This document shows, one piece after another, positions 22,200 through 64,000 of a stretch of 64,000 bases of DNA. Numbering within the stretch: position 1 is the stretch's first letter; each line of letters opens with the position of its first letter. This stretch comes from Psammoneis japonica (lineage: Eukaryota): assembly GCA_008632985.1 (NCBI GenBank), contig QPGO01000133.1:1-64000 (forward strand), in the 5' to 3' direction. The position numbers were made by a program, and so were the translations under genes. A model generated the notes under the pieces. The model saw nothing but the letters and a program-made list of their open reading frames with translations. It ran no database searches and was not told the origin of the DNA.

Positions 22200-22227
22200 C
22201 GCCATCCAGGTAGTTTAGGCGCTTGTG

Positions 22228-31200: not shown

Positions 31201-31311
31201 AAGAACACGGAAGATACGGTCGCTGAAGTGGGGTAACGGTCAGTACAATGTGTAGAATTCAACGGAGAAATACTACGGAATACAACATGGGTTGTATTCC
31301 CGGGATAATGT
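22228..31311. repeat. Tandem array of a 1333-bp unit, about 6.8 copies
   Basis: ORF track recurs at exact 1333 spacing (23372, 24705, 26038, 27371, 28704, 30037). Units start at 22228, 23561, etc.; the array ends at 31311. Confidence 0.97.
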
Positions 31312-32719: not shown

Positions 32720-33109
32720 AGTATGACTGATGCTCTTTTGTACAAACGCAATGCATGCTACGGTGGTGGAATATATGCATGCAGTTAGAGATGCCGATTG
32801 ATGGTCGAGGAGCCGTCAACCAGAAACAGTTTTGTATGAATGCTGTAAAAATCGTTACATTTATGCTAATTGCCACATCAATGTTCCAAACAATGTTGCA
32901 ATGCAAATGCCACAATCTATATATGCGTCGAAACAAAAAATAGTTATCGACTGACCTGTCTTAAACACTAGACCTTGGGAGCATCGACAGCTTGGTCAGC
33001 TCTTCTCAAAAAGACGCCATCATTCCTTTTTCATGAGTCATTGCAATTGTTTTTATCTTCTGACGCTCACATTCAGCCCAATTCAGACAGGTGCAAAGAT
33101 CAAGTCTAT

Positions 33110-35325: not shown

Positions 35326-35448
35326 TAGCTAGAGGCAATGAAACACGGGCGGTGTCCCTGAAGAATTGTGTTTTACGGAACGTTGGAAGCTTTTGTTCTC
35401 TTGTACAAATTTCATGCTTTATGATGCTATATATTTTACGTCAAATTT

Positions 35449-39750: not shown

Positions 39751-40314
39751 AATGATTCTTTATACCTCATTTAAGTAATGATATGTTCATTTACTGTGCA
39801 GCCACTGCACATGCTGTACCGTATGACAGACAGCACATCGTCGTCACTGCATGCAGTGATGTGCTAGCTGCAGGGCCCTGCTGTACCGTACCGTACAGTG
39901 CAGCACAGCCGGCACAGAACATTTGATCATGGCGTCCATCATTCCACGCAGCGACAAGAGGCATCACACTCCATGTACAGTGCAGCACCGGCATGCAGAC
40001 TGCTGGCACCACATGGATGGATGGATGTGCCCGCCATGCCCATCCGTCCACCACCCGTCCTTCGCCCGCCGTCCGCACCACAGTCGCTCATCGCCATGGG
40101 ATTTTCCATCACCACATTCTGGTTGACTCACAAATTGATTGCACTGATCATTTCAACATTGTGCACTCTCCATGATGATTTGTGTGCTGTTTTTCTCATG
40201 CTGAACAAAGAAGTTTGTGGGGGAAAGGGCGGGGAGCTCGTCTGGCAAAAGCTCCTGAGCAACAAAAACAAGGAAGAGTGTTGAGAAATTTTCAAACAAC
40301 AATCTCAGAGATGG

Positions 40315-40316
<2 letters not shown>

Positions 40317-40354
<38 letters not shown>
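40317..40354 (+). repeat. (GA)19 microsatellite
   Basis: Directly visible. Confidence 0.95.
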
Positions 40355-40358
<4 letters not shown>

Positions 40359-42358
40359 GAGATGTGACAAGGTGTGACAAGCAATTGATTGATGAGGAAA
40401 TGCACTTTCTTGGGTGTGCGAAAAAACTTGAGTCATTTGGCATTGTCTTTGTGCACACTGTGGGTGCTTGTGGGAGAGACACATGGACAGTCAAGTTGTT
40501 TGTGCCCTGGTTGGCAACTGGCAGGTGCTTGAATTTGAGTGCCTGCACACCTGGGGTGTGCACTCATCTCTGGAGTGCACACTCAACCACCAACCACTGC
40601 CCGTGGTCGCTGGTGGATGACTTGGTTCACCTCAATCTTCATTGCCTTGGCCCGCTCTTCAGCATCTGCTGAACCTTTCACAACACTGTAAAAAGAGAGC
40701 ATGTGCCAGGGTCTTTGTGCTCTCACTCTCATTCATGGCACAGGCTCCAGGCTCCAGGGTCTTTGACAGCCACCACATGCAGCACTTGAGCAACACAAGG
40801 CAGGCTGGCTGCACACATTGTCCAGATGGTGCGCCTGGTCCTCTTCCACTCAGCATGTTTGGCACATCAGAGTTGACCCTCACTTGGTGGACCCTTTGAA
40901 TGCACACTTGGTGAGTGTGCTTTGATCAGAGGAAGAGCTGCAGGTTCAGGAGGTGCTTCAGGGAGCACGACGGGGGCAGGAAATTGTTGTCTTCCCCCTC
41001 ACAGGTGTGACTCAACTCATTGCATCTTGGAGTTGTTGGTTTGCAAGTGGCGCCAAACATTGCAGCTTGAAGCATTGATGAATGTGCACTTCTCTGCTGG
41101 CTGCCTCTCATGCCTTCTGAAGGTGCTCCAGAGGAGTGAGCTGCTCACCTTGCAGGTGCACTGTGTTTGACCCTTCCTTCTGAGTGATGTGTGGGTCAAC
41201 TGCTCAAGATGCGGGAGTTGCTTTAAGTGACCAAGTGGATCCATGAAGCAGCAGCAAAAAGATTGTCAAAAACCACATGATGCCAAGCAGCACAGCAACT
41301 CCAGCTTGAAAATTGAGGACTTGGGTTGGGGGTGCACGCTGGACATCTCCACATGCAAGCATCTCTCTGATGACAGCAAGGCACTGTGCTGGAGCCAGCA
41401 AAAATGTCTGCTTGGCAACATCTGAGGGAGTTGGAAGTGACGTTGCAGACGTGCTTGCTGGCAAAAGAGGTGCCCCCCTCCCCCCCTTTCAACAGAGTGA
41501 TGCATGAATGAGCACTGCTCTCCTCATGTTGGAGATGGGCCAAATGTTCTGCATTTGACAAGAACTCCACTCTGATGATGGGCATTGGCAGCACCACAAA
41601 ACCCATGTTGTGGCTCGTGCTCATGGGCATGCTGAACAAATGAGGTGGCTTTGAATGCACTGCCATTGGCAAGAAACTTTTGAGCAGCCACACCATGGTG
41701 CAGAGCATGCTTTTCAAATGCCTGCTTTGCTCACACATGGTCTCTACAACTGAAAACTCAAGTTTGCACTCAACCTGAACACACCCTGAGGTGTGGTTGA
41801 CAAGTGCCTGGCCTTCCTTAAATTGCTTGGATGTGCAGCTTTCCCATTGGAGTTGCAGGTCTCCAGCCCAGGAGACAAGATTCAAAATGATCAATGCTGA
41901 AAGCTTGGCACATTTGCAAATCTCTTGTTGATCTCAGAGAGATTGCTTGACTGAGTCAGCAGCCTCCTCTGAGAGTGATGATGTTGTGGCACAAAATGGC
42001 GCATGCTGGCATTCTTCTGGCCATCTGCCAATGCAGGTGCCACAAGTCTGGCAGATTTTGCCTTGAACAGGAGCCATCAGCAATGGCTGGCTCTTCAGTT
42101 TTGTGGACTTGAGTCCTTGACAATGCATGGTCACACTCAAAAACCATGATTTGGCCAGCATCGTTTCCCCTCCCTCATCATTCCCATCTGCCCCAACTCC
42201 AAAAATGTTCAATGTTGGTTTCGAGGTTTTGTGCATTGGCAGTTCACAGCGTTCAATGAAACGACAGTGAGCTGTGATGCCAATGATTGGAAAAGCAGTC
42301 CTGCGCGCAATCCTTGGTTGTGGTGGTCCACAATTCAGAGTCTGTTTTGTTGAAGTCT

Positions 42359-43140
42359 TCATCTGGGCCAATCAAGGTTTTGACAACTGCAGCGGCATTT
42401 GTTGCTGCTGTTGCTGTTGTTGCTGCTGCTGGATGACACTCCAACAGCCACTCCTGCAACCACAGTGGCAACAACCAGCAATGATGCAGCCCCCAAGAGA
42501 ACAAAGCAATTGCAATGACGACACTTTGCTGCCACATGGTGGTCATCATGTTCTGCTGGAATCTCGTCCTTGTCTTCAACCTGCTCTGCTTGGGCCACCG
42601 GAAGTTGACAAAAGCACAAGTTTTCTTCATGCAGCCATGCCATTCTCTTGTCATCATCTTGAGTGAGTTGAGCCTGGACAAGCACAGTGCTGCCGTTGTC
42701 ATCACCATCACCACCAAGGCTTTCACTGCTGGTTGGAAGAGTGATGGGATGATCCAAGGTTGTCACAGTGGCGACTCTGTCATGTCCAATGCCGGGTTCT
42801 GCCACTGGTCTCATGGCAGGTTGACCTCCAGGTCTCCAGGCAAATGCACCAGGCAAGACAAATGCAGGTGGGGAGTCAACGCCAGTGGCATTGACATCGG
42901 TTGCATCACCTGGCAATGACAAGATGCTGTTCACAGAAGCCACATTGGCCGCCTTCTGTCACTTGCCCTTTTTGGTTTGAGTGCTTGTCCCATGATTTTG
43001 GTTGCTGCTGGAAGCCACAAATCCATCCACTTGTTGTTGTTGTTGTTGCTCTTGCTCATGGTGATGTCCAGATTGAGGCTTTTTCTTTGTGTTGACACTG
43101 CTTGTAGATGGTCAATCTTTGCCGTCGTCTGGGCATGGCT
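42359..43140 (-). pseudogene. Hypermutated relic of a PGAFA/TM-type receptor-like host gene
   Basis: PGAFAW...VLVQAQL...VAQAEQV...hydrophobic LLVVATVVAGVAVGVSS has the same architecture as the N-terminus of the gene at 54065. Tyr-free and TA-free. Confidence 0.55.
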
Positions 43141-46100
43141 TTCTTGTTGAGGTCTTTGTTTTGGAGCAATGAGTTGTCCTTTTTGTCCTGTTTGTTGTTG
43201 CACGTCACACTGCACTGCCGCAGCACTCTCAAAGACAGTGTTCACTGCTCTGCTTGCTGCTTCTCTCCAGAGCAGCAGCAGAGGATTGTGATGAGTGCAA
43301 CAAGGGACACTGGCAGGAAACAACACAAAATGAATGTTCCCTTTGCAATCAGCATGATCGATCTGCACATTTCGCACATCACACAGAATGCACAGATTTT
43401 GCTGCATTGCATCCGATTCATCGAAATGCAGTAAACACAAGTTGGGTAGAATCCCAAAAAATGACATCTTCAACTTGAAGTTCATTCAGTCATGAGTTGT
43501 GTTGTCATTGTGTTTTTTGTGATGGTCTTGTCAACCGTTTTCACCCAAACTTGTTCATCTCATTGAGCAAAAATTCAAATGTGAAATTGCACCACAAAAG
43601 AGAAGACTGTGATTTTTGTGTGTTTGGCCAGACCATCTCATCAATGACTGCAGCTGCGAGCTGTCATGTGCCACTGTTGCTGTTTCCCAAAAGACCAGCA
43701 TGTCAAGCAGAGACATGTTGTTGAGTGGTGTGGCAGCTTGTTCCCTCACCAACCCACAAGCATTGGCCAGAGCTGCTGGCAACAGACAACAAAGCATGCA
43801 GGGCTGCTCTGCCAGATTTGGTGGACCACCCCAGCAAGGCTTTCCACATCTCATGCTGGGGCAACGCGGCCTCTTCTCACCTGTGCCAGGTGTGTGTCTG
43901 CCACCCCAAACTGAACGAAGCTGTTGTTTTCAACTCAACTTGGGTGTTGTCAATGTGCTCAAGCCCAAGGCACCCAAGATGGGAGGAGCAGCCCTCACCA
44001 GGTCTGCTGAGCTGGTGGCTTGGACAGGCAGCAAGCTCAGGGAAGGCTTGCCTTGTGCAGATCCTGCTGCTGTGACTTCTCTGATGTCTCTGAGCCAGCA
44101 CCATTCACATCATGTTGTTAGACCAACAAGTTGATGCAATGAAAAGAGAGTCCCACAAGGCTTCCAGTTCTGTTTGCTGCACTTGTCCTTGCAGCTGGTT
44201 GGCTTTGGGCCACCTGAAAGTTCTCAATGGTGACTTCAAATTTGCAATGCATGCAGGCACCCAACAGCACCAACAGACAGGTGCACATTCCAGATGATTC
44301 ACTCCAAAGAGTGAGGTTGAAACACAGTTGAGAGAGGGATTGGTTGCTGAGGAAAACCCTCAAAAAACAGTTGCTGATGCACTGCGTCAGGGTCCAAAAA
44401 CATTTTTCCTTCAATGCACCTAGGTTTTCACAGCAACCCTTGTGTCCAGGAGCTCCAGCACATGCTGTGTCCACTGCTCAGAAGAGCAAGGCCCACTGCA
44501 CCACTGGACTTCTTTCAAAGCACGTGAAAAAGGGAAACCCAGCTGTTTGCTTTTGAGAAAGGCATCATGGGCCACCTGGAGGGCTGTGTTTTGGACATGA
44601 TGACTCTTGTCTTTTGGATCCAGAAGGCCCTTCCGAGACAATGACTCACATCAAAAGCCATCAGATTTGAACCAATGCCCAAGCCAATGTGTGCAAATGC
44701 ACAGTGCCAACAAAACAAAAGAAGATGCATGGGCTGACCTGTCTCAGGCACTTGATCTTGTTCAAGTCAGCAGCTTGATTGCTTCTCTTTTCAAAGATGC
44801 TTCACACTCATTGCTCACATGAGTTGTTGCAGCTGTTTTAATCTTCCAGCCTTCACATTCAATCCAAAACACAAAACCAAAAATCTGTTTTTAAGGTGCT
44901 GTTACACTCCCGCCCTGCAACTCTGGCAACAAGCCAACCCACACCCCCAGCACACCTGCGCGCGGCAGGGATGCATGTCAATCAGCAGATGATGCCCAGC
45001 CAAAGCAACGGACGACGTCGAGACAACAACACTTAAAAGGTTTCTTGTTTTCATTGAGAAAGGAGCCATGGTGGCCACAAAACAACAGCAAAAGACAATG
45101 ACAGTCAGAAGAACTTGGCTCAGAAATGGCAGCGCACCTTGAAGAAAGCACGGGAACTTCAAACCCTTGAGCGCAGCTGCCACAGTGCAAAGTGCACAGT
45201 TTGGAACAGTGATCTTGAATTGCCGGTAGACAGCAGCAGAAGGATGGTCACTGGGAACTGGCAGACAGGGGGATGGATGACTTGGGAACTTGACAGGGTG
45301 ACAGCTGGCAACAGCAACTTCCGACGTAGAAAAACCCCACACTCAATCTGGGGCAGAACATTTGCTTCCGTGACGGGCATGTGCCATCAACACAGACAGA
45401 CTTGATTTCATGCTTTGTGGGACTGGAACGAGAGCAGAAAGTTCACCACTCAAAGGAGGCAGCTTGGCATGTCGGCAATTAGAAGGAAGGTCATTCTAGA
45501 CTTGCAGGCATGGAAGGGTAGATCTCAATGTTGTGACGCATCGGAAAACAGCAGCAATTTCTGACACACATAGAAACAACACTGGGTTCTGCACAGAAGT
45601 GCCGATGTGTGCAGCGGGTGGACAAAAAATCAAGTGACTCCAAGGGACAGCTCAATCTCATGCTCAAAAGTGCATCAACAGAAACATTTCTTTCTCTCAC
45701 AAAGGAAAGACTGTGACTGGCCAATGGGAAGAAGAGGGGTTGCTGAGAACAGGCGGGTGTGGGTGTGAACAGTTCGGAGATTTGAAAAGTCGATCGTCAG
45801 TGTCAACTGCTGAAGCGCGCAGAATTTGCACTGGATCCTGTGTAGAAAAATTTCTGAATCGGCAAAAAATCACCAGGAAAGACAAACAGCTTACGACCCA
45901 CAAGGCGTTGATGCCAGTTGTTTTCCACTGAGAAACATCATTGCTTGTCATGCTGAAATGAGGGCATGCCATTGGTGGATGTTTCCGAAAGGAGCGTGTG
46001 AGACCAAGCAACACACCATGTGAGAAGGGAGGCATCTGCACCAGAGCATGCACAGAAATGCACGCAGGTGGTTTCAAAGGGAGTGATGCTGAAATTGTGG

Positions 46101-47023
46101 CCTTCACATTCAATCCAGCTCAGCAGGTGGCCAGGGTGCAAAGATCAAGAAACTTGAATTCAAAATGTTTTTGTGTGTGTGAAAATGGGTGCGTGTGCAC
46201 CGCCCAAGTCTGGAACAAGCTCAAGTCATGAGTTGCAGCTCCCTCTGGCGGCAGCAACAATGGGGGAGGCACTGGGGAGGTGCGCCAATGACAGCAGCAC
46301 CCACCATGACAAGTTGCTTTCTGCTGCACCAACCATGGCTTGATTGGTGCAAGTGAGAATTTTTGCAGCACATTTGTTTTGCTCTTTGCCAACAAACACC
46401 TGGGTGCTCCAACCCATTGCTGCACAGCGGTTGCCCCACCACTGCCCTGGAACAGATGTCAGCTGATTTTCTCTTTCTCTCACTTCCAGTGGTCCAGTCA
46501 TGTCATGCAATGCCTGAAAAGTTTTGCAGGCAATGAGCACTTTTTTCTGCTGGGAGAGGCACTGCCAGCTTTCAAGCCACAGCTTTTGCAGCAATGCTGG
46601 CTGCGCGCTGTTGTCAAGCCACCTCTGACAAATGAGTCCAGGAGCAAAGATGCTGCTTGGAGTGCAAGAGGAGCTGACAACCTTTTCTTCATGTGGCTTT
46701 CTGCCACCACAGAGCAGCATTTGCTTGGTGGGGAAGGCCATGGCCAATGGCTGAAGCAGCCTGGATGGGCAGGTGTGCTGAAAGCCTTGAGCCCCAAACC
46801 CAAGCTGCATGGATGGGCCAGAGAGCGGGCAAGGTGGGAGCTGTCAAACCATCTGAAGTCAGCTGTTGTTGTTTTTCTCTTGTGAAAAATGAGAGAGCCA
46901 ACAACAACGGTCAACTCGAACATTGGATGGCACTTTAATGGTTCAAACAAATTCTTGCAATGGTCGGAGCATGCAGTCACAACGCGCGAGGCAGGATCCG
47001 CGAATGAATGCTCCAGGACACTG

Positions 47024-47205
47024 CGAACAAATCTCGATGCAACGAAAGAACAAGCACGACACCTTGAGTCTAAATGGAAAGCAGCAACACTGTCAATGCG
47101 AACCTAAACCTGATTAGATTGTGAGCGTGTTGCTGCAGCACCACTTGATCCACACATCTCAACCAACCACCAATTGCAACGTGGCCCTCCATCCAGATTT
47201 GCTCG
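47024..47205 (-). repeat. 3' LTR of copia element 1 (heavily TA-mutated)
   Basis: Ungapped match to 53709-53890 with 18 transitions; preceded on the minus strand by purine-rich GCGGGGA. Confidence 0.93.
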
Positions 47206-50200
47206 GTCCCCGCGAAACGGCAATGACAGTGCCGATTCGTCCAAACATGCAACATCCTCTCGCAGAGAGGCAAACCACAAGAACCCAAATTAAACCACCA
47301 GATGTGCTGGCTTGGGAGGCCACGATGCGTGGGCACGAGCCACAGGTGCCTGGCCTTGGTGTCGGGACATCACCAAAAAATGCACGAGCAAAGCTTCCAT
47401 CGCCGCTCTCCTGCAACCACCTTCGCAAGTAGATCGGCCAAGTTCGTTTCCGTGTCCTCCTTGCCAACACGAACAATTCCCACTGCAACCGCTTCTCGTG
47501 CAACATGGCAGTTGATGGCATTGTGCTTCTTGTGCAAAACCGACTCGGGTGCACTTGCATTCTTTGCAACACCGCGATTGTCACAAAAGACACTTGCCGG
47601 TCCTTCAAGGGGAACCCCAAACATACGAAGCTTGCAACGCAAAGCAACAATCAATTCCTCACAAATCCGCATCGCAACCAATTCACTTCCAAACGTTGCC
47701 GATTCCACCGTGTTCTGCCGCTTGCTGAACCATGCCACTGGTGCATTGTTGACGAATGTCAGAATCCCGCCATGCGACCTGTGAGTGACAACATTCCCTG
47801 CATGGTTAGCGTCAACAAATGCATGGATGTTTGCCGGATTGCCACGAGGCTTCGGTGCCCATGGCGGCAGTTCCTCCTCGATGTCCCCGTAAAACTTGGT
47901 CCAGTCTGTGTTTGAATTGAAAATGGGTTCATCAATCACCGGTTCCTTTGGATCAAATCCGATGCGTCCGACGTTCTGGTGTTTCTTCATGTGCGCAAAT
48001 GCATGGTGCAATGCCTCAAGATGTCCTTTCCTCGGATTAGCTTGACATTGAGACAGGATTGAAACCTCATGCAAGATGTCGACACGACCCAACTCGATCG
48101 CCCAACGACAAATCCCTGTCAGCTGCAAATGCCTGTCCACCAAGTCGGGACCTGACTCGTCCGTCATGTCCAGTTCCGGTTTGCACTTCGGGGGCAGTGG
48201 ATCCTTTGCACTGTTCTTCAGAGCCTCTCCATTGCCGTCTTCATCCAATGGGCCTTCCACAGTCTTAATCGCCGATTTGACACATGACCTCAGTGAACTC
48301 GCCCAGATTGTGTGCCCATCCTGAGTCTGAACCTTCTCAACATTGGCTCCAAGATGAACTTCTGGTTCTCCTTTGCTGCCGGGCTTCACGGCACAGTGTT
48401 CACCCATGCAGCAACAATGAACTTCCCTTGATGGGAAATGACCAGTGTGTCATCGACATGAACCAAAAGCATTTCACAACACTCGTGCCCATCCTCTCGA
48501 GTCGCCGTACGCAAGTGGACATCTGGGTCCACTCTCGTCGATTCGAAGCCTGAGTCACGTAAGACCGATGACAGTGCAGAGCTCCAAGAGCATCCCAAGC
48601 TCTTTGAGCCATGCAATGCCCGAGTGACAACAAGCACCTTTCCTTTGTACTCGCCGCATTCCTTTCTGCCTTCAAACCATGTCTTTTCTGTGCACGGTGC
48701 ATTGAGACAAGCATTCTCCAGATCAATCGCCACAATGTCAACACCATTCAAGGCTGCCAACAAGAACCCAAGTTGCACACTGTCTCTGGAAACCATGCCA
48801 GAGCAAGTGATCGATGCAGGGGCCTCTGTCGTGTGTCCGCCAGCTACAAACCTTGCCTTTCTGGTGAAATCCATTTTAATGTCGAACACCATGTGGCACC
48901 TGATCTCCTGACAACCACGCAAAGTTGTGCTCTTGCCTTCCCGGACGACTTGAGGGGTTTCAGCTTCGTGCTCGCGCCATGCCACCTTCACCTTTGCCAT
49001 CTCCTTGTTGATTGCACGAGCCCAATGATCTGTCCCCGTTTCCTGATCAATCCACAAAGCATCCTCCGTGGACTTGGGCAATCGGATCCCAAACTTGTGA
49101 GTCGTGCGCCAGCACTTCTTCTTGACCTTGGATGTGGCGCGATTCCGTTTACGCAGGACATGTGTGACCCACCAAGCAAAAGCAGGTTCTTCCGTCAACC
49201 TGTTCGCAACAGCATGCTCAGCAACTTCAATGGGGTTGGAGTCCTTTAGATCTTTGAGTTTGACCCAAGATGAGCTGCCATCCTTCCATCCAACCAATGA
49301 CTTCCATCCTTTTGTTGTGATCTTCTTCTTCTCCTTCCCGTCAGCGGTTCGTACGGTGCCGTCAGCAATCAACACCGCATCGTCACTCCTCTCGTGGTCC
49401 TGCATCTCGTGTAAGATAGAATGCTGGTTGCCCTTGCTGTCGACCTGAGCAAACATGTTCTCGGCAATGACATTGGCTGTGTGCTCATCTGTGGTTCCGT
49501 CGGCACATTCCACTTCGCATTCGCGAGTGTCAAACAATGGGTTTTGATGCCGAGTCCCAATTGGACGCCCATCCTGTCCTCTTGCACGTTTCGTTGCAAC
49601 ACCACGTCGCTCGCCGTCGGCTCTGATGTCAAACACAAGTTCCATTCCCAGGTGTTGATCGATTGCCTGCTCGTCGTCGTCATCTGGTCGCTCGTCGGGT
49701 GATGGCATGTTGCCACATTCCTCGTCCTCTGGCGTGACACCGCCCTCACACTCCACACCGAGGTTGCCGTCAATTGCAAGATCGTCCAACACGAATGCGG
49801 GCACAGATTCATTGCCTTTGAAGACAAAGTTGGTGTCGTCCAATCGCTTCTCCAGCTGCTCATTAAAGTTGTTGACCTTGACGCGAACATCCGGTTGCAC
49901 CACATCAGCCTGTGTCACGTGCTCGACCCATGTTTTGGAGACAATCTTCCCGCTTTCTGCAACAATCCAACAGCACATGTCCGAGCCAACTTTGTGTGAG
50001 ACACCAAGCCACCGTCCAAGCCTTCAAGGATTGTCAGTTGCGTTCGGCTTGTTGGGCCTGTCCCACCACCACACCACATCGTAGAAACCAAAATCCAAAT
50101 GCTCGCCTGTCTCTGGTGTCTGCCCAGTGACCTCTTCATGTCCAGTCCTCTTGTCCCTGCCTCTTGCCATGCGCGACACTAATTCTGACTTGCAAACAAG

Positions 50201-53200
50201 ACCAAAATCCCACAATCGCTTTGGTGCCTTCTTCTTCATCATCTGCAGCCGCCAATGTTTGGCCAAGAAACCAATTTCGTGCTCCGCTGCCTGGTTCTGG
50301 TTCTTCCGACCCTGCTCTGATGTTCTTGGTTGCACTCTCGTGCGTCGTGCGTGTCTCACAAATTCGGTGCTCCTTCCTGTGAACTCTCCTGCCCCGTCCG
50401 ACATAAGACATTCTGGTGCACCCACGTCGTCTGTGAATTCAACAAGAGACAAACCTGCCTCCGACCCAGCGGTCATTGGCACAACCTTCACGAATTTGCC
50501 CTGAGCACAAACATTGGCACACGTGTTGCCGAGCAAAGACTTCACCTTGGATGTCAAAGTGTCCACAAACCATGTTGCTTTCAGATGCTTCCGATGCAAG
50601 TCAAGATGATCCACCCTCACTCTTCGTGACATCGGCTGGGTCGCTGTTCGCACACCACGCTGAGTTGTTACATTGAGGGTGTCTTTTGCCGTTTCTAAAC
50701 CGACACTCCATTTTCGGGCCAGCTCTTCAGCGTCAATCTTCGAGTGCCGATCCTTGCCACATAAATCTTTGACTGCCCTCTGCCTCTTGTCCACGTTGTC
50801 GCGATGTGCACAAGCCACGTTCACTGAGCTGACAAGCCTGTCGCAAAACGATTGAAGTTGACAGATGGGAGATGCAGACGACAGTTGCACTTCGACCTCG
50901 CCCCAGCGCACTGCTTGGGACTTTGCCTTCTCGCTCCTTAATTCCGAGACCTGTTCTTGTTGCATGCCAGAGGTTGATGATCGAACAGTGCGCATCTCCG
51001 CCTGCTCTCTAGTGCGCTCCGGTGAGCCCATGTCCAGCTGTGCTGGATCCCATGCGTCACCTGTCAACAGCATGACCAGTGAGCTCTGCACTTCCCAATC
51101 CGTCGGAACACGAGACTTGAAAGACACAATTGTCCCCGTGGCATTGAAAGGGATGAAAGCTTTGTCAGCTTCAATGCCAAATCCGTTTCGGGTGTCGCAA
51201 GGGTTGTCGTGCACGGGTGTGTTGTGCGCACAGAGTTGGTTAGGATTCAAAAGTGAGTGTTCCATGTCGGTCCCAAACCAGAGCATTTGATCACCAACCA
51301 GCAAACATTCATGAGTCGTTTCCGGATCTGTCCATGCGGTGCAACAACGTGCCACAGGAATCTGTTTGATCGGCTCATGAGAGTCCAGAAATGGATGCAC
51401 CTTGCACACTTCATTTGTCATCTCCATGAGCTTCCAGTTCGCCCCAGTGCAACAAGTGTCCGCATGAGCATCACATTCATTTCGAGCGACAAACCCAGGT
51501 GTCGTCAAATTTGTCATCTGTGCAGAACTTGTCGATCGGATCACACGTTTTGATGTCACGGCAATGTGCCTCTTTGTTGCCTTTCCTTTGAAATGAGACA
51601 TTGGGTGGGGTTTGGTCAACAGCAAGAAGAGTGACACAAGCAAAAACGACAAGTGTGCCAAATGCACCAATGCTCCAGCAGCTGTTGCCACCCCAAGGAG
51701 TCAGGTGGAACCATTGCAGGCTCCCCGACCGAAGGCGCATCCATCACGTCCACCACGATCCCGGTCAGCGCCGCAACCACGCCCGCCACTCCTTTGCTCC
51801 TGATCCTGTTGTTGGGTTTGGCCATGGCCATCTTGATGGACTTGGGCTTCAGCCACATGCCTGCCGCCCCCATCGCGTCCTTGTTGACCTGCGGGAGACC
51901 CACGGCCACCACCGCATCCATGACCCATTCGTTCGCGAGCTTGGAACACGCAGCTCATGCCTCCATCACACTGCAACTTTTCCCATTCTTGAGCGCTAAA
52001 GCTCCTTGTAGGGTCGGATGCATCGACTCCATTGATCATTGCAGTGTGGTTGCCACCTCTGCCTTGACGGCCACCACCACGTCCGCGTCCACCCCCACGT
52101 CCAAATCTTCCTCCGCGACCGCGACCTTGATAAAAACCGCGGCCACCGCCGCCACCACGGCTCATTTCAGAAATCTTGCACTTCGAGCAACGCCGGGCTT
52201 CCAACTGAGCACCTGCATGCAAACGAGAGACTTCGGATGAGAAATGAGCACATGCCCCCGCGAAGTCACGAGGGTGCTGACTGCCAATGACAGCCGTTGC
52301 TGCAATGAGACGAGTGTCATCTGTTCGGATCCCTTTTAGAAGAATGTCAACTTTCTGTCATTCAGATTTGCGGTCGTCCGGTGATTTGTTCAAAGCAGCG
52401 AAAGCACTGGCAAGTTTCTCATTGAACTTTTCAAACGGGAGCAATCCTTCCTTTTTGTAAAACAAGGTTTCAACAGTTGCCGTAGCCAGATGGACGCGCT
52501 TGCTCAACTCGCCCTGTCCATTGCAATGGTCAACCCATGCGTTGAATGCTCCACGTCCGTCTTCTGTCGCGTCAAACGGTTTGATCCATGCCCATCCTGC
52601 CGTGTCGACCAAGTGTTCCTTCAACATGCGGCAAACGCTGCGGTTGTCCTCGTCATGTGCGGCGCCATTCAATGGCATCTGGCACATGCGCTGTTGTTGA
52701 GCATCCGTGAATGCAGCCGGAGCTGGCATTGTCCTTACGACACAGCGAAGGGGTTCTTTCAACACGCCAAATTTCTGTGCCAAGAGATTCAAGAAAGCAT
52801 CTTTGCACACATCGAAGTCATCAGGCTTGAACTTTACGAGACCGCTTGCCGACGTGTCCGAATCCGTGCGCTCCTTTTCGATGCGCCTGCCATTCCGGGC
52901 CGCAGCCACAGCTGCTGCATTAAAGTCTGCCGCAACCAATGGCTGATTCCGTTTGAGCAAATCCTGGCACCACCATGCTAGCGCCTGTAAGTTCTTGATC
53001 TGAGTGGTCCCAAGAGTCACACGTCCGTCGGCCACCGTGCGACGAGACGCCCTCTGCGCCATGTCTTCCACATCGTGATCACTCTCCATCACTGCGATGT
53101 TTTCCAAAGTCGCGGACCCTTCATGGAAGACCAACCTCGCCCTTGCGTTCTGGTCAGCAACACCACAAACTTGCAAAACTGCATCAACGTCAGCTGCCGC

Positions 53201-53695
53201 GGCTGACGCCGCAAGTGCTGCTGCTGGTGCTGCCGCTGCTGCCATCCTGCAACAGAGAAAGGGTGCAAAGGTCCCGCACCGGGAACACACACAGCTGTGA
53301 GTCTGCATGGTCATGATGGCTGCACTTTCTCTGTGTTGTGATAACGGGTTCACACAGCCACCCAACGTCAGGGTGATCAGTCCTGTGTCGTTCATGTCAA
53401 CCGACATTGTTGAGCACACGCTCGGGCATGTCGCCCAATGCCGCAGTCCCTTCACACCCGTTGCATGTGTGAGGACAGTGACTGTCTTTGCGAGTGTCAC
53501 CATTGCAAGCTGTTTTTGTGGACATTGTTACAAGCGACACGAGATGCATCATCGTGCGCATCAATCCGAATTCTGACGCATCGCGCACAGTTCAGTGCCG
53601 TTTCTGCAGCTGCACGTTCTGTGCAAACAACACAACAAACAATCGTCCATGACGAATTGCACCTCGAAACCATTTCGCTCTGTCTTTTTCGTCTT

Positions 53696-53706
53696 GGCTC
53701 TGACAA
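53696..53706 (-). promoter_or_regulatory. Primer-binding site, tRNAiMet-type
   Basis: Minus-strand TTGTCAGAGCC next to the 5' LTR, matching the canonical TATCAGAGC core with a TA->TG change. Confidence 0.65.
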
Positions 53707-53708
53707 AG

Positions 53709-53890
53709 CGAATAAATCTCGATGCAACGAAAGAACAAGCACGATACCTTAAGTCTAAATAGAAAGTAGTGACACTGTCAATGCGAACCTAAACCTGATT
53801 AGATTGTGAGCGTGTCGCTGCAGCACCACTCGATCCATATATCTTAACCAATCACCAATTATAACATAGCCCTCCATCCAGATTTACTCG
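53709..53890 (-). repeat. 5' LTR of copia element 1 (largely TA-retaining)
   Basis: Matches 47024-47205. Confidence 0.93.
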
Positions 53891-54064
53891 ACTGGGTGTA
53901 GACCGCGCGCGGAAACGCGAAACGCGTATCTTGAGTCGTGACAAGCGAAGATACGAGATACGGCATAGCACATAGCCCCATTGCAACATCCATGCAATCA
54001 AGCTACGAAGCTATCTCCTTTTGAACCCTGTTGTTTTGGAACCTGCGTTCGTTTCACCACAACC

Positions 54065-58367: not shown

Positions 58368-59840
58368 CTCCCTCTCGAACGAAGAAGCATGCCAACCGCA
58401 AAGCAACTTTCGAATAGCCTCGAATTTAACCGTAACGATACCTTTAGTCAGAACATCAGCGCGTTGCAAATCTGTTGCGATCTTGGACACAGTAACTCGA
58501 TTTGGTTTGAGCTGTGAACGGAACCAATGACATTTGATTGCGCAGTGCTTGGACCTTGGCGTCACTCGGCCAGGTTCCACATTGGCTGGAGTCAAAGCCC
58601 CAGCATTGTCCTCCCACACAGCAGTGCGAACAGTTTTGGTGGTCCCCAGACCAACTCCAATGCCTTGAGAGATGGCTTGTGCAGTGTGCAGAAAGGGAAG
58701 GACAGTTTTCATGCAAGTGGAAAGAGCGCTGCACTCTGCTTCCATTGTTGACAGAGCAATTTCAGGTGCAAGCTTGCTGGGCCAAATGACAGGACAGTTG
58801 GAAACGCAAATGACAAATCCTGTTCGGCTTTTGACACAAGCCGGGTCATGCTTGTCTTCGTGTGGCCACAGTCCAGCAAAATCTGAGTCAACAAACACGT
58901 CAATGTTGAAGTCCCCAGATGGCTTGAGGATTGAGCCTTCATCCAGAGCACCCTTCAGGTGTCGACCCATCCGTTCAAGGGCCAGTTCATGCGAGCGACG
59001 AGGGCCATGAACAAATCTGGCTGCTGAGCTAACGGCGCAGGCAATGTCTGGCCTGGAATGGCCTTGAAGACATTGGAGCATGCCAACCACACTGGCATGA
59101 TCACAGGCTCCATTTGGTGGGTCTCCATCGGTGTCCTTGACCAACGGAGCAGCTGGTGTGGGCGTTCGGGCCTTTGGCAGATGGCCCACGTTAAGGGCTT
59201 CGACGACACGTTTGGATGGACCGCTCTGAGTGAGCTTGACAGTGCCATTGTCGGTGTCGCGTTCGATGTGGACCCCCAAAAAACCTGCGACGGAATCTTC
59301 AACTTCGATGGCCAGACCGCCATCAATTTTGAGTTTGTCGATCACTTCGTCAATGTGCTCTTGTTTTGGAGAGAAGAACAATGTGTCATCAACATGAACG
59401 AGGCAGATGACTTTATCGGACACAAATGGACACGGATCAACATCGTCTTGCGATTGAAATCCGGCATCTTCAAGTTTTGACTTGAGGTGCAGGAAAAAGT
59501 TACGAGGTCCTTGCTTGAGACCACACACGGTCCGTTTGAGTTTCAGCACTTTGCCGGGCTTGGTGTGTCCGCGAGGCATCTGCACGAAGACACCAGAGCG
59601 TTCTCGCTCTTCGGGCGTCATGGTGTCCCATTTGGGATCCTTGTCAATCGGAGCATGGACGAAAGCGGTGACACAATCAACTTGTTTCGTCGAAAGTTCC
59701 AAAATTTGAGAAAGTGTGAGCACAAGCCATGCGGTCGTCCAATTGACAATTGGAGCAAAGGTGTCAAAGCAGTCGACACCTTCCAATTGCTTGTCTCCAC
59801 GGACGCAAAAGCGGGCTTTACATTTGCGGATCGACCCATC

Positions 59841-60151
59841 AGGGTGTCGTTTGCACTTGAAGGCCCAAGTGGATGGCAAGACGTTCATCCAATCTTGGCG
59901 GTCTACTTCTTCCCAGGCGTCTTTGCCTTTGACTAGAGAATCGATTTCGACGTCGCAAGCTTTCAGACAAGCTGCTCAATCAGGACCATTCATTGAAGGG
60001 TGTCGTTTGCACTTGAAGGCCCAAGTGGATGGTAAGACGTTCATCCAATCTTGGCGGTCCACTTCTTCCCAGGCGTCTTTGCCTTTGACTGGAGAATCGA
60101 TTTCGACGTCGCAAGCTTTCAGACAAGCTGCTCAATCAGGACCATTCATTG
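59841..60151. repeat. 156-bp-period tandem duplication inside pol of copia element 2
   Basis: 59841-59995 vs 59997-60151, 3 mismatches. Confidence 0.95.
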
Positions 60152-63100
60152 CTTCTTCCCAAGTTGGATTGTCGGCGGAATTTGCATTTGCTGCGAGGGC
60201 AAGAGGGTGCATTTCTTCGAGTGTTCCGTGAACTTGATCGGTGTTTTTGTTGAAAAGGTCAAGCATTGCGCGCAAATCTTTAGACCGGAGTGCATTTGTG
60301 AGGCTGTCCCAACGCAAGGCCATCAAGAACTGTTTGTTCAGTGTTTCCGACTTGACAGCACGTTTGGGATTCTTGTGGGCATTCGGCAACTCGGTGGGCG
60401 GAGTGCGGATGTCGGCATGCATGGCTTCGATCAAGCGTTCCGGCTTCTTGACGGAACGACCGCTTCGAGTCCGAGCAGGTGTTGTGGCAGCATTCGGAGC
60501 AGGTTGAGGTTGCTCAGCTTCGGCAGGACCCAGGTCGAGGTCTTCAGGTGAGTCGTGATGATTGACAAGCGACAATTCGTCGTCGCTGTCATCACTGAAC
60601 TCATCGATCTTGACTCCCTCTGGAGCCTCTGAAGTTGCAGATTCTAGATCGTCAGCGGATGATTCAGGCAATGCAGGGTGCGCTCCCTCTGGAGCTGTGA
60701 CGGAAGAGGTTGAAGGAGGGACGGCGGGAGGGGCCGTTTTGGAGTTTGAAGACGACGTTGATGGCGGTCGTGTCGATGATTAGCGCGATGACGGCGCTCT
60801 GCGGGTGTCAACCAATCATCGTGTAAAGCCGGCAAGCGACGGCGAGGGTCATCGGCTGTGTCGGAAGGCTCAGGCGGAGCATTGTGTGCCAGCGAGTCGG
60901 CGGTGAGGAGGGATTCCCAAAGGTCGGCAGTGAAGGGAATGTCCTGGAAGAAACTGCCAGAGTCGCTGTTGGGCACTGTTGCAAAGTGGTTGTCGTAGAC
61001 CACGTGATGCTGAGGACTGACATGGCCCGTCGAGAGATTCAAAATGAGGCCGATGTTGGTTGAATGATCCGGTGAGACACCGAGATGTTGGCCACGGCGA
61101 CTCCTGGGGTCCCACTCAGGCAGTTTCTTTCCGTCTTGTAACTTGGGATCAAGAACACATGTGGGGGCAACCCCGTGCTTGTAAGCGCTGCAGGTGCGCA
61201 CAGGTGTCGAAGCGTTGCTTGGAAAAAATCTCGACCGGCGCGGCAAGAGTGTCAGACTTTGGGATGTGGTTCCACAAGTGGGGTCGCGTGGGTCATGGCA
61301 AAAGGCCACAACTCAAGGTTGGCGGCATCAGGCCACATGAGAATGGCGTGCAGCAGCATGGCTCGTGCCCATGAAGTGATGGTTTGGATGGAGCGCTCGG
61401 CCACGCCGTTCTGATGATGAGCGCCAACACCAGAAAAATCAACAGTCTGGTTGTTTTCTTCGAGGTCGTCCATGAAAGCCTTGGTGCCAAACGGGACGTT
61501 GTCAGCAAGGTGGGACTTGATGCGGACCCCAAATTGGTCACTAAGCTGCTCGAAGGACAGCTTGGCACGAACAGCTTCACCTGCGGCGAGACCAACTTGA
61601 TGGGTCAGATGGACATGGGCAGAAGCATGATCAACAAAAATCGTGCCTCCACAATGCTTGTCTTTCTTGGGTTCGCGTCCCTTGGACGTCGGAAGACGGC
61701 CAGGGACATGGCTGATGTGCTGATCAACGGAGACGCGTTGACCAGGCGCCAAATCTCCCTGTCGCAAAGTCAACGGCGGATGACCAGAGGTGCCGCGACG
61801 GTCAGGTGTTCATCGTTTCTGCTTTGCGAGTTGACAGGCAGCACACAAAGGTGCAGTGCAGCTGGAGACGGCTTGTGTTGAAGGCTTGACAATGTGGGAT
61901 TTGGTGGGATCCCGTGGTGTTGCACACAAGCGTTGAATGTGTTGGAAGCCGGCATGACCAAGTTTCTGATGGAGCAAAAGAAGCTCCTTCTGGCCGGGTG
62001 TTAGATTCTGATTGGTCTGAGAAGCAACTGAAAGAAACGAAGCAAGGCGTGCTTCGGTGCTGACGGGAGCCAAATTGCATTGTGTGACTCCGGCTGAGAT
62101 TGGTTCGGACATCATCACAAAAGGTAAGTTGTTTTCTTTGTTGTGCGGGAACTCGAGCGCATCCCCTTTCGGAAGAGTGAGGGTTGCTTTGTTTCCTCGT
62201 ACGTGACATTCACCTTGGTTTCCATTCTCTTGAAAACAGGCTTGAGGGCTGAAGAGTCGAATGGAAGCGTCGGGAACACAGTGGGCTCGCGTTCGGACGG
62301 TCCGGATTACATTCCAACAATCGATTGCGTCCCATTCCACGAAACCTTGACCAACTGCTCGGGTGCTGGAGGACAATCCGTTGATGGCAGTGGCACCAAT
62401 GGGTTCTAGCGGTCCTGCAAAGTCACCCAAGTGGGGTGTGAGCGACGAAGATGCTCCTGTGTCAAGAACAACAGGTGCGTCGACAGGTGGGCACGATGTC
62501 AATGCTTGACATTGGCGGCCTTCGAGATCTCTTGTGTCATTGAAGGATTTGATGTGCTGCGTTGGATCATCGGTCAACCATGGTGGGTCCGGCTTGGATG
62601 CAGCGACGTGAGATGGACCTGTCGTGGTCTGGTGAGAGAACATGGCTGCTCCACCGAAACCACTCGTAAAGGTTGCTGTTGTCGTGCGTGACAGGTTGGT
62701 TGCGATGCAAGAGAGCGTCGGCGCTTGACCACAAGCTCGCAACATTTCGGAAGAGGCAAGTGTCTTGATCAAATGGAGCTGTTCTAAAGGATCAATGCCT
62801 TGAACAAATTCGTCTAACGAACAACCGCACTGCATGTCGCACATGATCCAGGTTTGGTGTAACAGTCGGTGCTTGATGCGGTAGAACTCTTCTAGTTCGA
62901 AAGCTTCAGGGTCGTCTGGAGGTGCAAAAGGTGAGGGCTCCGTTCGTGTCGCGGAGCTACGAGGTTTGGTCCTCAGGTGGTCACCTGGAGGATCAAGCAA
63001 AGTGACGAAATCAGTTAAAGTCGCACCATGAGGAAACTCGTACATCTCGGAAGGTAGATGCAACAGGCGATGTTTGATTTGAGAATGGGCTTCTGCGGCC

Positions 63101-64000
63101 TCTTGTTGAGGATCGACGCAGGCAAATCTGGGTGGTCTCGTTTTCCCAGGTTTGAATCGACATCTCGATCTTGAGAGTTTCCACGACTTGGATTTTCGAC
63201 AGGAGCGATCCGGATCGGCTGCCGTTGTGTTGTCCGGAACAGGAGTTCGGCGCTGTTTGCGCCAAGTCGTTGGATGAAGGAAGGACCACAAGGGGTCTCT
63301 GCGTGGGATTCGAACTGGGTGCCGATCCAAGTGGCGAACCTGAGAATGATGTGTGATCCGAGTTCGATCAGGAGGACGACGAAATGAGGTCGGTTCGACA
63401 GCAGGAACAACAGCAAAGTCGGGAAGATCGTCGTGTGAAAGCGAAGGATTCTTGGAAAAGAGAAGCAAGCAGAACAAACATCCACCTGCTAAAACAAACA
63501 GCAACTGACAAATCGACGAAACTGCTTCGATCCCTCCCTCTCCAAGAATCTGGAGAGTGAACCACAGGAGCAAAAAATGACCAACCGACAAATGAGCCTG
63601 GACATCCCTTCCAGGAGCGGACGGTTGGTTGAAAAGGCAAGAAGAGAGGGCCACACGCTCAGGAGAGGAGGCGTGCCCGAAGCTTCAGGTGAAGGAGGCG
63701 AAGAGGCCGGACACAGTTTCGACCATCTCCTTCTTGGCATTGGCAATGGCGAGGTCACGATCTGTGACGGGAGCGGAAGCCGGTGCCGGAGCGGGCGCAG
63801 CGGCCGGAGCGGGAGAAGGTGCAGCGGCAGGAGTGGAGGCAACGTTCCCCGTCTCAGTCACCGGGTGCCAGCGCTTGGTTTTGCAATGATGGCAATGATC
63901 CTTGCCATCAATGTTGCGGCGACTGTCATCACTCTTTTCGGCTTCAGTCGGTGGCTGCCATTTCTTGGGAATGGTCTTGGCAGAGGGACCGGAAGAGGAG

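What the first reader, a model, noticed from the sequence alone, without database searches (positions are those of the whole stretch)
47024..53890. LTR pair gives a direct mutation spectrum: 14 of 18 differences at TpA
The two 182-bp LTRs, identical at insertion, align without gaps. By my manual count they have 18 differences, all transitions: 14 at TA sites, 3 at CpG, 1 other T->C. At one site the copies read AGTGAC and AGCAAC, implying ancestral AGTAAC mutated on opposite strands in each LTR. About 10% divergence with no transversions or indels means LTR dating would be badly inflated.
Basis: seen in the sequence. Interest (0 to 1): 0.88.

Follow-up and report, generated by a model that had tools for sequence, protein, structure and literature searches.

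The report
TpA-targeted hypermutation of diatom repeats
The two end-repeats of a retrotransposon in a diatom-like genome differ because one of them, like all silenced repeat DNA nearby, has had nearly every TA step rewritten to CA or TG by a targeted mutation process so far reported only in one 2026 preprint on an unrelated alga.

Summary
The two 182-nt LTRs align without gaps and differ at 18 sites, all transitions. At 12 sites one copy has TA and the other CA or TG. One double site reads CA versus TG. Three differences are CpG-type and one is aCc/aTc.

All 12 TA states lie in the copy at 53709-53890. Four polarised comparisons give the direction TA to CA/TG:
- 21 of 26 conserved Tyr codons in the element now read Cys or His.
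- Two paralog pairs show the same loss.
- So does a six-unit tandem array.
- So does a 155-bp duplication.

About half the window lies in sharply bounded domains with TA observed/expected (o/e) of 0.03-0.14. Gene-bearing DNA has 0.5-0.64. One domain ends at the inner edge of the spared LTR.

A read contig shows an empty-site allele, so the insertion is young despite 10% LTR divergence.

The host is a diatom or close relative. The same TpA-only signature was measured in Bigelowiella natans in a 2026 preprint. I found no diatom report. The enzyme is unknown; DNA adenine deamination is my inference.

The parts
47024..47205 (-). 3' LTR of the copia element (copy A), hypermutated: 3 TA left, TA o/e 0.26
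53709..53890 (-). 5' LTR (copy B), spared: 15 TA, TA o/e 1.0. It lies outside the depleted domain, 79 bp from ORF 53969-55324 (+)
47206..53708 (-). Internal gag-pol region of a Ty1/copia element. It is one reading frame from 53527 to 48386 broken by three in-frame stops, then a frame change. RVT_2 matches at E = 1.3e-8. Of 26 conserved Tyr codons, 21 are now TGY or CAY
47020..47023 (.). Target-site duplication ACTG, left copy. The right copy is at 53891-53894. A read contig joins 47023 to 53900, which is an empty-site allele
53891..53894 (.). Target-site duplication ACTG, right copy
39901..53700 (.). TA-depleted domain (66 TA in 13.8 kb, TA o/e 0.08). It holds an old relic block (40-47 kb, CpG also depleted) and the young copia, and it ends at the inner edge of LTR copy B
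5001..7150 (.). TA- and CpG-depleted block (TA o/e 0.03, CG o/e 0.26)
8201..9950 (.). TA- and CpG-depleted block (TA o/e 0.04, CG o/e 0.28)
12851..17200 (.). TA- and CpG-depleted block. It holds degenerate copies (14182-15041 and 15879-16992) of the normal stretches 17213-18108 (part of the vacuolar sorting receptor (VSR) gene) and 7220-8306
33001..35300 (.). TA- and CpG-depleted block (TA o/e 0.05, CG o/e 0.17)
58501..64000 (-). Second copia element of a different family (RVT_2 and gag_pre-integrs). TA o/e is 0.11 and 0 of 10 conserved Tyr are kept. Its internal 155-bp tandem duplication (59841-60151) differs at 3 sites, all TA versus CA/TG
22215..31311 (.). Non-coding tandem array, period 1333 bp, with six full units and no indels. 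It has 53 variable YpR sites, 40 TA-type and 13 CpG-type

Best explanation
The LTR differences come from a hypermutation that acts in place on DNA and is confined to particular domains. It converts the palindromic step 5'-TA-3' to TG or CA, which is an A:T to G:C transition on either strand. It acts on silenced repeat DNA (LTR retrotransposons, a satellite-like array, dead gene duplicates) and stops within about 100-500 bp of genes. The copia element inserted recently at the edge of such a domain. Its internal region and its 3' LTR then lost about 80% of their TAs. Its 5' LTR lies 79 bp from the next ORF and stayed outside the domain, unchanged. Slower CpG to TpG/CpA decay, presumably from 5-methylcytosine deamination, runs in the same domains, so CA/TG is the common end state. 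Shown here: the signature, its direction, its strand symmetry, its restriction to domains, its action on repeats that are not retroelements, and the youth of the insertion. Inferred: the chemistry. I think it most likely that adenine in TpA is deaminated enzymatically to hypoxanthine in DNA by a TadA/ADAT-like or other deaminase recruited to heterochromatin. This is the mechanism proposed for the same signature in Bigelowiella natans. That the process serves as a defence against repeats is also inferred. The confidence given is for the in-place, domain-limited TpA hypermutation. For adenine deamination as the chemistry I would put it at about 0.4.
For: LTR pair: 12 of 15 TAs of copy B read CA (7) or TG (5) in copy A, and 0 of the 3 TAs of A are changed in B.

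Direction:
- Of 485 conserved columns against 120 diatom copia homologs, 81 differ. These include Y>C 12, Y>H 9, I>T 5, V>A 4 and L>S 3. There are no C>Y or H>Y changes.
- Tyr is kept at 2 of 26 columns. Other residues are kept at 71-100%, except Ile at 50%. At these columns no homolog shows more than one Cys or His.
- Paralog pairs: 29 of 40 and 25 of 29 aligned TAs became CA/TG, with 1 and 0 kept. The reverse change, CA/TG to TA, is seen 2 and 1 times.
- Array: 9 sites with {TA,CA,TG}, 13 with {CA,TG}, and 18 with TA plus one product. Transitions are 85 and transversions 10 among 95 variable columns, with no indel.
- The 155-bp duplication differs at 3 sites, and all 3 are TA versus CA/TG.

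Domains: HMM segments have TA o/e 0.03-0.14, against 0.49-0.95 elsewhere (0.50-0.64 in the seven gene-bearing segments). The window holds TAs at 53342 and 53529, then 15 TAs within 53713-53885.

Not a trait of the lineage: all 80 environmental relatives have TA o/e 0.53-0.99.

Youth: a contig joins 47023 to 53900 at depth 49, against a flank depth of 114-218. The two allelic differences in the left flank are gtA/gtG and gcG/gcA.

Other copies of the family differ from this one mainly by transitions. Places with a change number A>G 208, T>C 232, C>T 254 and G>A 272, with 14-26 for each transversion class.

Precedent: B. natans mutation-accumulation lines showed 231 new mutations in two integrated viral regions, all but one A>G or T>C and all of those at TpA. 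The authors put forward an ADAT2-like candidate (preprint 10.64898/2026.01.13.699255; Results and Discussion read).
Against: Within the LTR itself, polarity rests on an outgroup at only one site (47181). The rest is inferred from the surrounding domain and from the other comparisons.

No genome is held. I therefore could not look for a deaminase, a thymine dioxygenase or other LTR pairs, and the targeting rule is untested.

The domain edge coincides with the inner edge of the 5' LTR to within a few tens of bp. That is tighter than a chromatin boundary need be and is not explained.

None of the 80 environmental relatives is TA-depleted, so there is no sign here that the process is widespread. 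Metagenome assemblies may favour young copies.

The read contigs probably come from the sample that the window was assembled from. They are not independent of the assembly, and their sequencing platform is not on record.

The read-laying table showed only 40 of 1132 variable places. How many TA losses are private to this copy is therefore unknown.
Confidence: 0.8

Rival explanations
1. The signature and targeting are the same, but the chemistry differs. Thymine in TpA is oxidised or otherwise modified (5-hydroxymethyl- or 5-formyluracil, base-J-like) by a TET/JBP-type enzyme as a silencing mark. The modified base mispairs with G and gives T to C.
For: TpA is self-complementary, so a change on T and a change on the paired A give identical sequence footprints. 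The context data cannot separate the two (hits per opportunity by the base after A: A 12/42, C 22/45, G 8/30, T 24/51). From my own recall and no call here: thymine hydroxylation in dinoflagellates and base J in telomere repeats favour T followed by A.
Against: No evidence for such a modification in this organism was available. The only study of this signature proposes adenine deamination. Neither chemistry was tested here.
Confidence: 0.2
2. Editing took place before integration. The retrotransposon RNA was edited A to I by an ADAR- or ADAT-like enzyme, or its cDNA was edited during reverse transcription, and the edited copy then inserted.
For: A to G changes with a 5' U/T are the known preference of adenosine deaminases (established knowledge, and cited in the preprint's Discussion). 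In a cDNA-editing scheme the 3' LTR is the one expected to be hit, and here it is.
Against: Both LTRs are copied from one template, so RNA editing cannot make them differ. The hits fall on both strands in similar numbers: 7 TA>CA and 5 TA>TG in the LTR, and 12 Y>C against 9 Y>H. Single-strand cDNA editing would give only one class. The same signature occurs in a non-coding tandem array, in dead gene duplicates and in an allelic difference in old flank DNA, none of which passes through RNA.
Confidence: 0.04
3. Fungal-type RIP or another C to T process at CpA struck copy B, so TA is the derived state.
For: On the LTR pair alone, CA/TG versus TA is what RIP leaves. Copy B has the lower G+C (0.41 against 0.48).
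Against: Every polarised comparison runs the other way. No C>Y or H>Y change is seen at conserved columns. Copy B lies in normal DNA and has TA o/e 1.0, close to the range of its relatives (0.53-0.99), while copy A at 0.26 is the abnormal one. The host is not a fungus.
Confidence: 0.03
4. The process is as in the best explanation, but the asymmetry between the LTRs has another cause. Copy B was also mutated and was later restored by ectopic gene conversion from an intact copy. Alternatively, targeting works by homology to a partner copy that lacked the 5' LTR.
For: The domain edge coincides with the LTR's inner edge. The family has many copies, with a word depth near 2000 against 114-218 in the flanks, so donor copies exist.
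Against: Other domain edges in the window also sit close to genes. One edge lies at 17200, before the ORF that starts at 17312. Another lies at 9950, before the ORF that starts at 10046. A third lies at 58501, beside the ORF that ends at 58000. Protection near genes therefore accounts for this edge without a further event.
Confidence: 0.1
5. Artefact: modified bases in heterochromatin caused systematic base-calling errors in a long-read assembly, so TA and CG were written as CA/TG.
For: Systematic A>G and T>C errors at methylated motifs are known in nanopore assemblies (my own recall). TA and CG are lost together in the old blocks.
Against: Word-based contigs of run X1 hold 57% of the sampled words of 46500-56400, and 496 of the 2483 laid pieces are at least 99% alike. 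In the unique flanks the only listed differences are two allelic ones at 46836 and 46993. A strand-specific error would give a mixed consensus that includes CG, and CG is not raised. The platform of X1 is not on record, so this is not a full exclusion.
Confidence: 0.03

Closest known systems
TpA hypermutation of integrated viral DNA in Bigelowiella natans (Mettrop et al., bioRxiv 10.64898/2026.01.13.699255; abstract, Results and Discussion read)
   Same: The changes are almost only A>G and T>C, only at TpA, on both strands, and they give TpG and CpA. The process is confined to particular regions of foreign or selfish DNA. [quoted passage not shown]
   Different: There the host is a chlorarachniophyte (Rhizaria), the measured targets are single-copy giant-virus and virophage inserts, and the rate was measured in mutation-accumulation lines. 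The depletion is mild (Rho TpA 0.45 in the giant-virus region). Here the host is a diatom-like stramenopile and the targets are LTR retrotransposons, a tandem array and dead duplicates. The depletion is near saturation (o/e 0.03-0.14), the edges hug genes, and CpG decay runs in parallel. Nothing was measured de novo here.
Repeat-induced point mutation (RIP) of ascomycete fungi
   Same: It is a hypermutation of repeated DNA made up of transitions only. It has a dinucleotide preference, acts on DNA in place, inactivates transposons, and makes LTR or repeat dating meaningless.
   Different: RIP is C to T at CpA, so it creates TpA and lowers G+C. Here TpA is destroyed and G+C rises (0.41 to 0.48 in the LTR). 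Dependence on duplication, on meiosis and on a RID-type methyltransferase could not be tested.
APOBEC/ADAR editing footprints in retroelements of animals
   Same: Clustered transitions occur in retroelement copies with a neighbouring-base preference. ADAR and TadA/ADAT favour a 5' U/T.
   Different: Those footprints are strand-specific and arise before integration. Here both strands are hit, the two LTRs differ, and repeats that are not retroelements carry the same mark.
Diatom copia-like elements (CoDi; Maumus et al. 2009, PMC2806351; term search only)
   Same: Both are Ty1/copia-type elements with short LTRs in a diatom-like genome. The best named relatives are from Fragilaria and Cyclotella.
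   Different: The term search of that paper found no occurrence of hypermutation, RIP, dinucleotide, 'C to T' or deamination. Membership in a named CoDi group was not tested.

Membership tests
Ty1/copia LTR retrotransposon | Two direct LTRs flanked by a target-site duplication | tested here: met
   182-nt LTRs at 89-90% identity. ACTG lies on both sides. An empty-site contig joins 47023 to 53900. The duplication is 4 bp, whereas copia elements usually make 5 bp (my recall).
Ty1/copia LTR retrotransposon | Copia-type reverse transcriptase (Pfam RVT_2) | tested here: met
   PF07727, E = 1.3e-8, 35.2 bits against a cut-off of 31.6. There are 1398 homologs at E <= 0.001, and the listed ones mostly carry RVT_2.
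Ty1/copia LTR retrotransposon | Integrase lies upstream of the reverse transcriptase | tested here: inconclusive
   No Pfam integrase hit at E <= 0.01 in the 558-aa piece upstream of the RT. Homologs do align across 47373-51541.
TpA hypermutation as described in B. natans | Changes are A>G/T>C at TpA, giving TpG and CpA on either strand | tested here: met
TpA hypermutation as described in B. natans | Confined to particular regions of foreign or selfish DNA, with the rest of the genome normal | tested here: met
   Domain map. The depleted domains hold two copia elements and dead duplicates. The gene-bearing segments have TA o/e 0.50-0.64.
TpA hypermutation as described in B. natans | Raised de novo rate, measured across generations | not testable with these tools
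   This needs mutation-accumulation or pedigree sequencing. The only indirect sign is a hemizygous insertion that has already lost about 80% of its TAs.
TpA hypermutation as described in B. natans | Same enzyme or homologous machinery | not testable with these tools
   No genome is held, and the enzyme is unknown in B. natans too.
Fungal RIP | C to T, mainly at CpA, which creates TpA | tested here: not met
   The direction is the opposite one.
Fungal RIP | Both copies of a duplication are mutated | tested here: not met
   In both paralog pairs and in the LTR pair one copy is normal and the other is depleted. Selection on the functional copy could mask this.
APOBEC-type cDNA editing | Strand-specific change of a single class | tested here: not met
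   Both classes occur in similar numbers.

The most novel reading that the evidence does not exclude
Diatoms or their close relatives have a DNA-level editing defence that is restricted to chromatin domains. It erases TpA from silenced repeats at rates well above methyl-CpG decay, and it shares its machinery with the process just found in the rhizarian Bigelowiella. That would make TpA editing an old defence across the SAR supergroup (stramenopiles, alveolates, rhizarians), a mirror image of fungal RIP, and possibly the first natural DNA adenine deaminase system.
Probability: 0.4. Interest if true: 0.88.

Novelty: new member of a known kind. Interest (0 to 1): 0.74.

Why it matters
The only precedent I found is one 2026 preprint on a chlorarachniophyte. 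Seeing the same TpA-only signature at near saturation in a stramenopile would show that the process is neither a quirk of one species nor limited to viral inserts. Here it acts on retrotransposons, a satellite-like array and dead gene copies.

The finding has practical consequences:
- LTR-divergence dating, repeat-landscape 'ages' and Kimura distances are badly inflated in such genomes. Here divergence is 9.9% for an insertion that is still hemizygous, and at most about 1-2 differences lie outside TA and CpG steps.
- DNA without TA lacks TAA and TAG stop codons, so it throws up long false ORFs.
- Homology searches for degraded transposons miss copies whose Tyr and Ile codons have been rewritten.

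On mechanism, the sharp edges next to genes and the contrast between one spared and one hit LTR give a natural assay for what recruits the mutator. If the chemistry is adenine deamination in DNA, the enzyme would be a natural adenine editor.

Tried and rejected
- Whole-genome survey of LTR pairs: not possible, because no genome is held.
- Earlier scan notes: nothing found for this genome or for the search words.
- RNA evidence: no RNA holder was listed among the runs, so nothing can be said about expression.
- Full polarisation of the LTR from other copies: read laying printed only the 40 best-supported of 1132 variable places, and only 47181 lies in an LTR.
- Breadth in nature: 80 metagenome loci with relatives of the pol protein (37-66% identity) all have TA o/e 0.53-0.99. 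This gives no second case, but it serves as a control showing that the lineage is not TA-poor by nature.
- Pfam on long ORFs of the depleted blocks (12994-13758, 33121-33906, 34356-35816): no family found. They are probably false ORFs.
- Tyr test on the second copia: 0 of 10 Tyr kept, but only 27 distant homologs align and many other residues differ as well. This is weak support.
- Literature: six searches found no report of this signature in diatoms. The supplements of the bioRxiv preprint are closed, so I could not see its site tables or any wider context analysis.
- Considered and rejected: ordinary ageing of an old insertion. Against it are the lack of any indel or transversion in 182 nt, the empty-site allele and the 12:0 asymmetry. 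GC-biased gene conversion was also rejected, because it is not specific to TpA and would homogenise copies rather than diversify them.
Full report
**1. The observation**

Window 47024-47205 (copy A) and 53709-53890 (copy B) align over 182 columns with no gap and 18 mismatches, and all 18 are transitions. The classes are these:
- At 12 sites A reads CA or TG where B reads TA.
- One double site, 47085-47086, reads AGCAAC in A and AGTGAC in B.
- At 47131 and 47146, A has TG and B has CG.
- At 47181, A has CG and B has CA.
- At 47167, A has aCc and B has aTc.

TA occurs 3 times in A and 15 times in B.

The pattern is not chance. Only 30 of 182 positions lie in a TA in either copy, yet 12 of 18 differences fall there (p = 2.8e-6). 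All 12 TA states sit in B (12:0, p = 4.9e-4).

**2. What the repeats belong to**

The region between the LTRs carries, on the minus strand, one reading frame from 53527 to 48386 broken by three in-frame stops, followed by a frame change. It holds a copia-type reverse transcriptase (RVT_2, E = 1.3e-8). A protein search gave 1398 homologs at E <= 0.001. The best reaches 64% identity, and the named ones come from the diatoms Fragilaria crotonensis and Cyclotella.

A host gene in the window, EF-Ts at 1527-2570, also has its best named matches in diatoms (Rhizosolenia 69%, Seminavis 66%), and no listed hit exceeds 78%. The host is therefore a diatom or a close relative whose proteins are not in that collection.

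In the element's own orientation, copy B is the 5' LTR and copy A the 3' LTR. The LTRs end in CG...CG with a terminal inverted repeat of about 10 nt, and ACTG flanks the element on both sides.

**3. Direction of change**

I aligned 120 homologs to the element with tblastn. Of 485 columns where at least 70% of at least 15 homologs agree, 81 differ in the element. The leading classes are Y>C 12, Y>H 9, I>T 5, V>A 4 and L>S 3, and there is no C>Y or H>Y change.

Of 26 conserved Tyr columns, 2 still encode Tyr, 12 read TGY, 9 read CAY, 2 read TTT and 1 reads GTG. Other residues are kept at 71-100%, apart from Ile at 50%. At these columns no homolog shows more than one Cys or His. Even the polymerase motif that normally carries Tyr before VDD reads HVDD (the motif itself is from my own recall). 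TA was therefore the ancestral state and CA/TG the derived one, on both strands in similar numbers.

**4. Independent repeats of the test inside the window**

- *Paralog pairs.* Two stretches of normal DNA have degenerate copies inside a depleted block. For 7220-8306 against 15879-16992, 29 of 40 aligned TAs of the normal copy are CA or TG in the other, 1 is kept and 10 changed otherwise. For 17213-18108 (part of a vacuolar sorting receptor gene) against 14182-15041, the figures are 25 of 29 and 0 kept. CA/TG to TA is seen 2 and 1 times. CpG is lost at 25 of 48 and 37 of 46 sites.
- *Tandem array.* A non-coding array at 22215-31311 has six full units of exactly 1333 bp and no indel. Of 95 variable columns, 85 are transitions. 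Nine of the 95 belong to the array's outer edge. Seventy-six lie in 53 variable pyrimidine-purine (YpR) steps. By the states seen among the copies, these steps are {CA,TG} 13, {CA,TA} 9, {TA,TG} 9, {CA,TA,TG} 9, {CG,TG} 7, {CA,CG} 5 and {CA,CG,TG} 1. Three-state sites can only arise by independent hits on TA in different copies. This array is not a retroelement, so the process acts on DNA in place.
- *155-bp duplication.* A tandem duplication inside a second copia element (59841-60151) differs at 3 sites, and all 3 are TA versus CA/TG.
- *Second copia.* It keeps 0 of 10 conserved Tyr. This alignment is distant and the support is weak.

**5. Domains**

A two-state model on 50-bp bins splits the window into normal and depleted segments.
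- The seven gene-bearing normal segments have TA o/e 0.50-0.64 and CG o/e about 1.0.
- Depleted segments are 5001-7150, 8201-9950, 12851-17200, 33001-35300, 39901-53700 and 58501-64000, plus most of each array unit.
- Old depleted blocks have TA o/e 0.03-0.05, CG o/e 0.17-0.29 and CA/TG o/e 1.7-1.8.
- The two copia elements have TA o/e of about 0.1 while their CG o/e is still 0.7-1.0.

TA loss is therefore faster than CpG loss. In the LTR, 12 of 15 TAs are lost against 2 of 9 CpGs.

The domain edges sit close to ORFs. One edge lies at 9950, before the ORF that starts at 10046. Another lies at 17200, before the ORF that starts at 17312. A third lies at 58501, beside the ORF that ends at 58000.

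The edge that matters here falls between 53529 and 53713. The last 367 bp of the internal region hold 2 TAs, and the 182-bp copy B holds 15. Copy B lies 79 bp from ORF 53969-55324. This explains why nearly all changes are in copy A.

At 47181, all 13 other contigs of the family read A. That difference is therefore an A to G change at CpA in copy A. It is possible that all 18 changes happened in A, but the double site may also record one hit in each copy.

**6. Age of the insertion**

Three coded runs from one sample were laid on 46800-54100.
- The element's word depth is about 2000, against 114-218 in the flanks, so the family has many copies.
- One contig at depth 49 joins 47023 to 53900, with nine letters between the two sides that resemble the right flank. 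It reads like an allele without the element and with a single ACTG.
- A contig of the same depth differs from the window at two flank sites, gtA/gtG and gcG/gcA, again one TA-type and one CpG-type change.

The insertion is thus still hemizygous, yet its LTRs differ by 9.9%. Without the TA and CpG steps, about one or two differences remain.

The contigs probably come from the sample behind the assembly, and their platform is not on record. They do argue against a base-calling artefact: 57% of sampled words are held, and 496 of the 2483 laid pieces are at least 99% alike.

**7. Not a trait of the element lineage**

A scan of metagenome contigs returned 80 loci encoding relatives of the pol protein (37-66% identity). 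All 80 have TA o/e 0.53-0.99. This is a useful control. It is also a negative result for the breadth of the process, with the caveat that such assemblies may favour young copies.

**8. Context**

Surviving TAs in depleted domains are rarely followed by T on the strand of the A (5.9%, against 29% in normal DNA) and are often followed by A (42% against 22%; chi-square p = 2.5e-19). In the polarised pairs, hits per opportunity by the base after A are C 22/45, T 24/51, A 12/42 and G 8/30. This is a modest preference for T-A-pyrimidine. Because TpA is self-complementary, the data cannot tell a change on A from a change on the paired T.

**9. Mechanism**

Shown:
- Transitions at TpA hit both strands.
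- They arise in place, within sharply bounded repeat domains.
- They are faster than methyl-CpG decay.
- They run close to saturation.

Inferred: an enzyme recruited to silenced chromatin. Adenine deamination to hypoxanthine is my first choice, because adenosine deaminases of the TadA/ADAT/ADAR kind prefer a 5' U/T (established knowledge, and argued in the preprint's Discussion). Oxidised or modified thymine at TpA is the main alternative chemistry.

Editing of RNA or cDNA before integration is excluded as the cause of the LTR difference, for three reasons. Both LTRs are copied from one template. Both strands are hit. Repeats that are not retroelements carry the same mark. Fungal-type RIP is excluded by the direction of change.

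**10. Comparison with what is known**

Six literature searches found one direct precedent: Mettrop et al., bioRxiv 10.64898/2026.01.13.699255. I read its abstract, Results and Discussion; its supplements are closed.

In mutation-accumulation lines of Bigelowiella natans, two integrated viral regions gained 231 of the 302 nuclear point mutations. All but one were A>G or T>C, and all of those fell on TpA. The rate was about 6e-7 per site per generation, and the effect appeared only in some lines. [quoted passage not shown] The authors propose an ADAT2-like DNA adenine deaminase.

The window shows the same signature in a different supergroup lineage, on different targets, and carried much further.

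A term search of the 2009 paper on diatom copia elements found no mention of hypermutation, RIP, dinucleotides or deamination. I found no diatom report of this signature in the library searched.

**11. Verdict**

I file it as a new member of a recently described kind. It is the footprint of TpA-targeted hypermutation in a diatom-like genome, with an unusually clean natural experiment: one LTR lies inside the mutated domain and one outside it. The enzyme, the targeting rule and the genome-wide extent remain open, because no genome was available.

Noticed in passing
window 22215-31311: Tandem array of period 1333 bp with six full units and one partial unit, 97-98% alike, no indels and no long ORF (longest 212 aa). 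Each unit has a TA-poor part and a short TA-normal part whose length differs between units (150-550 bp).
   Followed up: partly
window 12994-13758, 33121-33906, 34356-35816: ORFs of 250-490 aa lie wholly or partly in TA-free blocks and have no Pfam match. DNA without TA lacks TAA and TAG stop codons, so these are probably false ORFs that a gene finder could call.
   Followed up: partly
window 12851-17200: The depleted block holds degenerate copies of part of the neighbouring vacuolar sorting receptor gene (14182-15041 against 17213-18108) and of 7220-8306 (15879-16992), both about 75% alike. This looks like an old local duplication in which one copy of each stayed normal.
   Followed up: partly
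window 58501-64000: A second copia element of another family on the minus strand (RVT_2 at 58248-59975, gag_pre-integrs at 61810-63684) runs off the end of the window. Its first few hundred bases, next to the potassium-channel gene (56771-58000), are TA-normal, as with copy B of the focal element.
   Followed up: partly
window 53680-53708 (minus strand): Just inside the 5' LTR the sense strand reads CTTTGTCAGAGCC. This resembles the copia primer-binding site complementary to initiator tRNA-Met as I recall it, with TG where a TA would stand. The motif is recalled and was not tested.
   Followed up: no
window 46836 and 46993: The only two allelic differences seen in the 224-bp left flank, which is old depleted DNA, are one TA/TG and one CG/CA. 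This suggests that both processes are still running in old blocks.
   Followed up: partly
window 54273-54330 and 54363-54420: A 58-nt direct repeat, 71% alike and 90 bp apart, lies inside ORF 53969-55324, which has no Pfam match.
   Followed up: no
depleted domains, whole window: Normal-versus-depleted paralogs also show double changes between CA and TG (about 6 and 13 sites). The tandem array has 13 sites that read only CA or TG. CA and TG therefore interconvert, or both arise from a lost TA or CG.
   Followed up: partly
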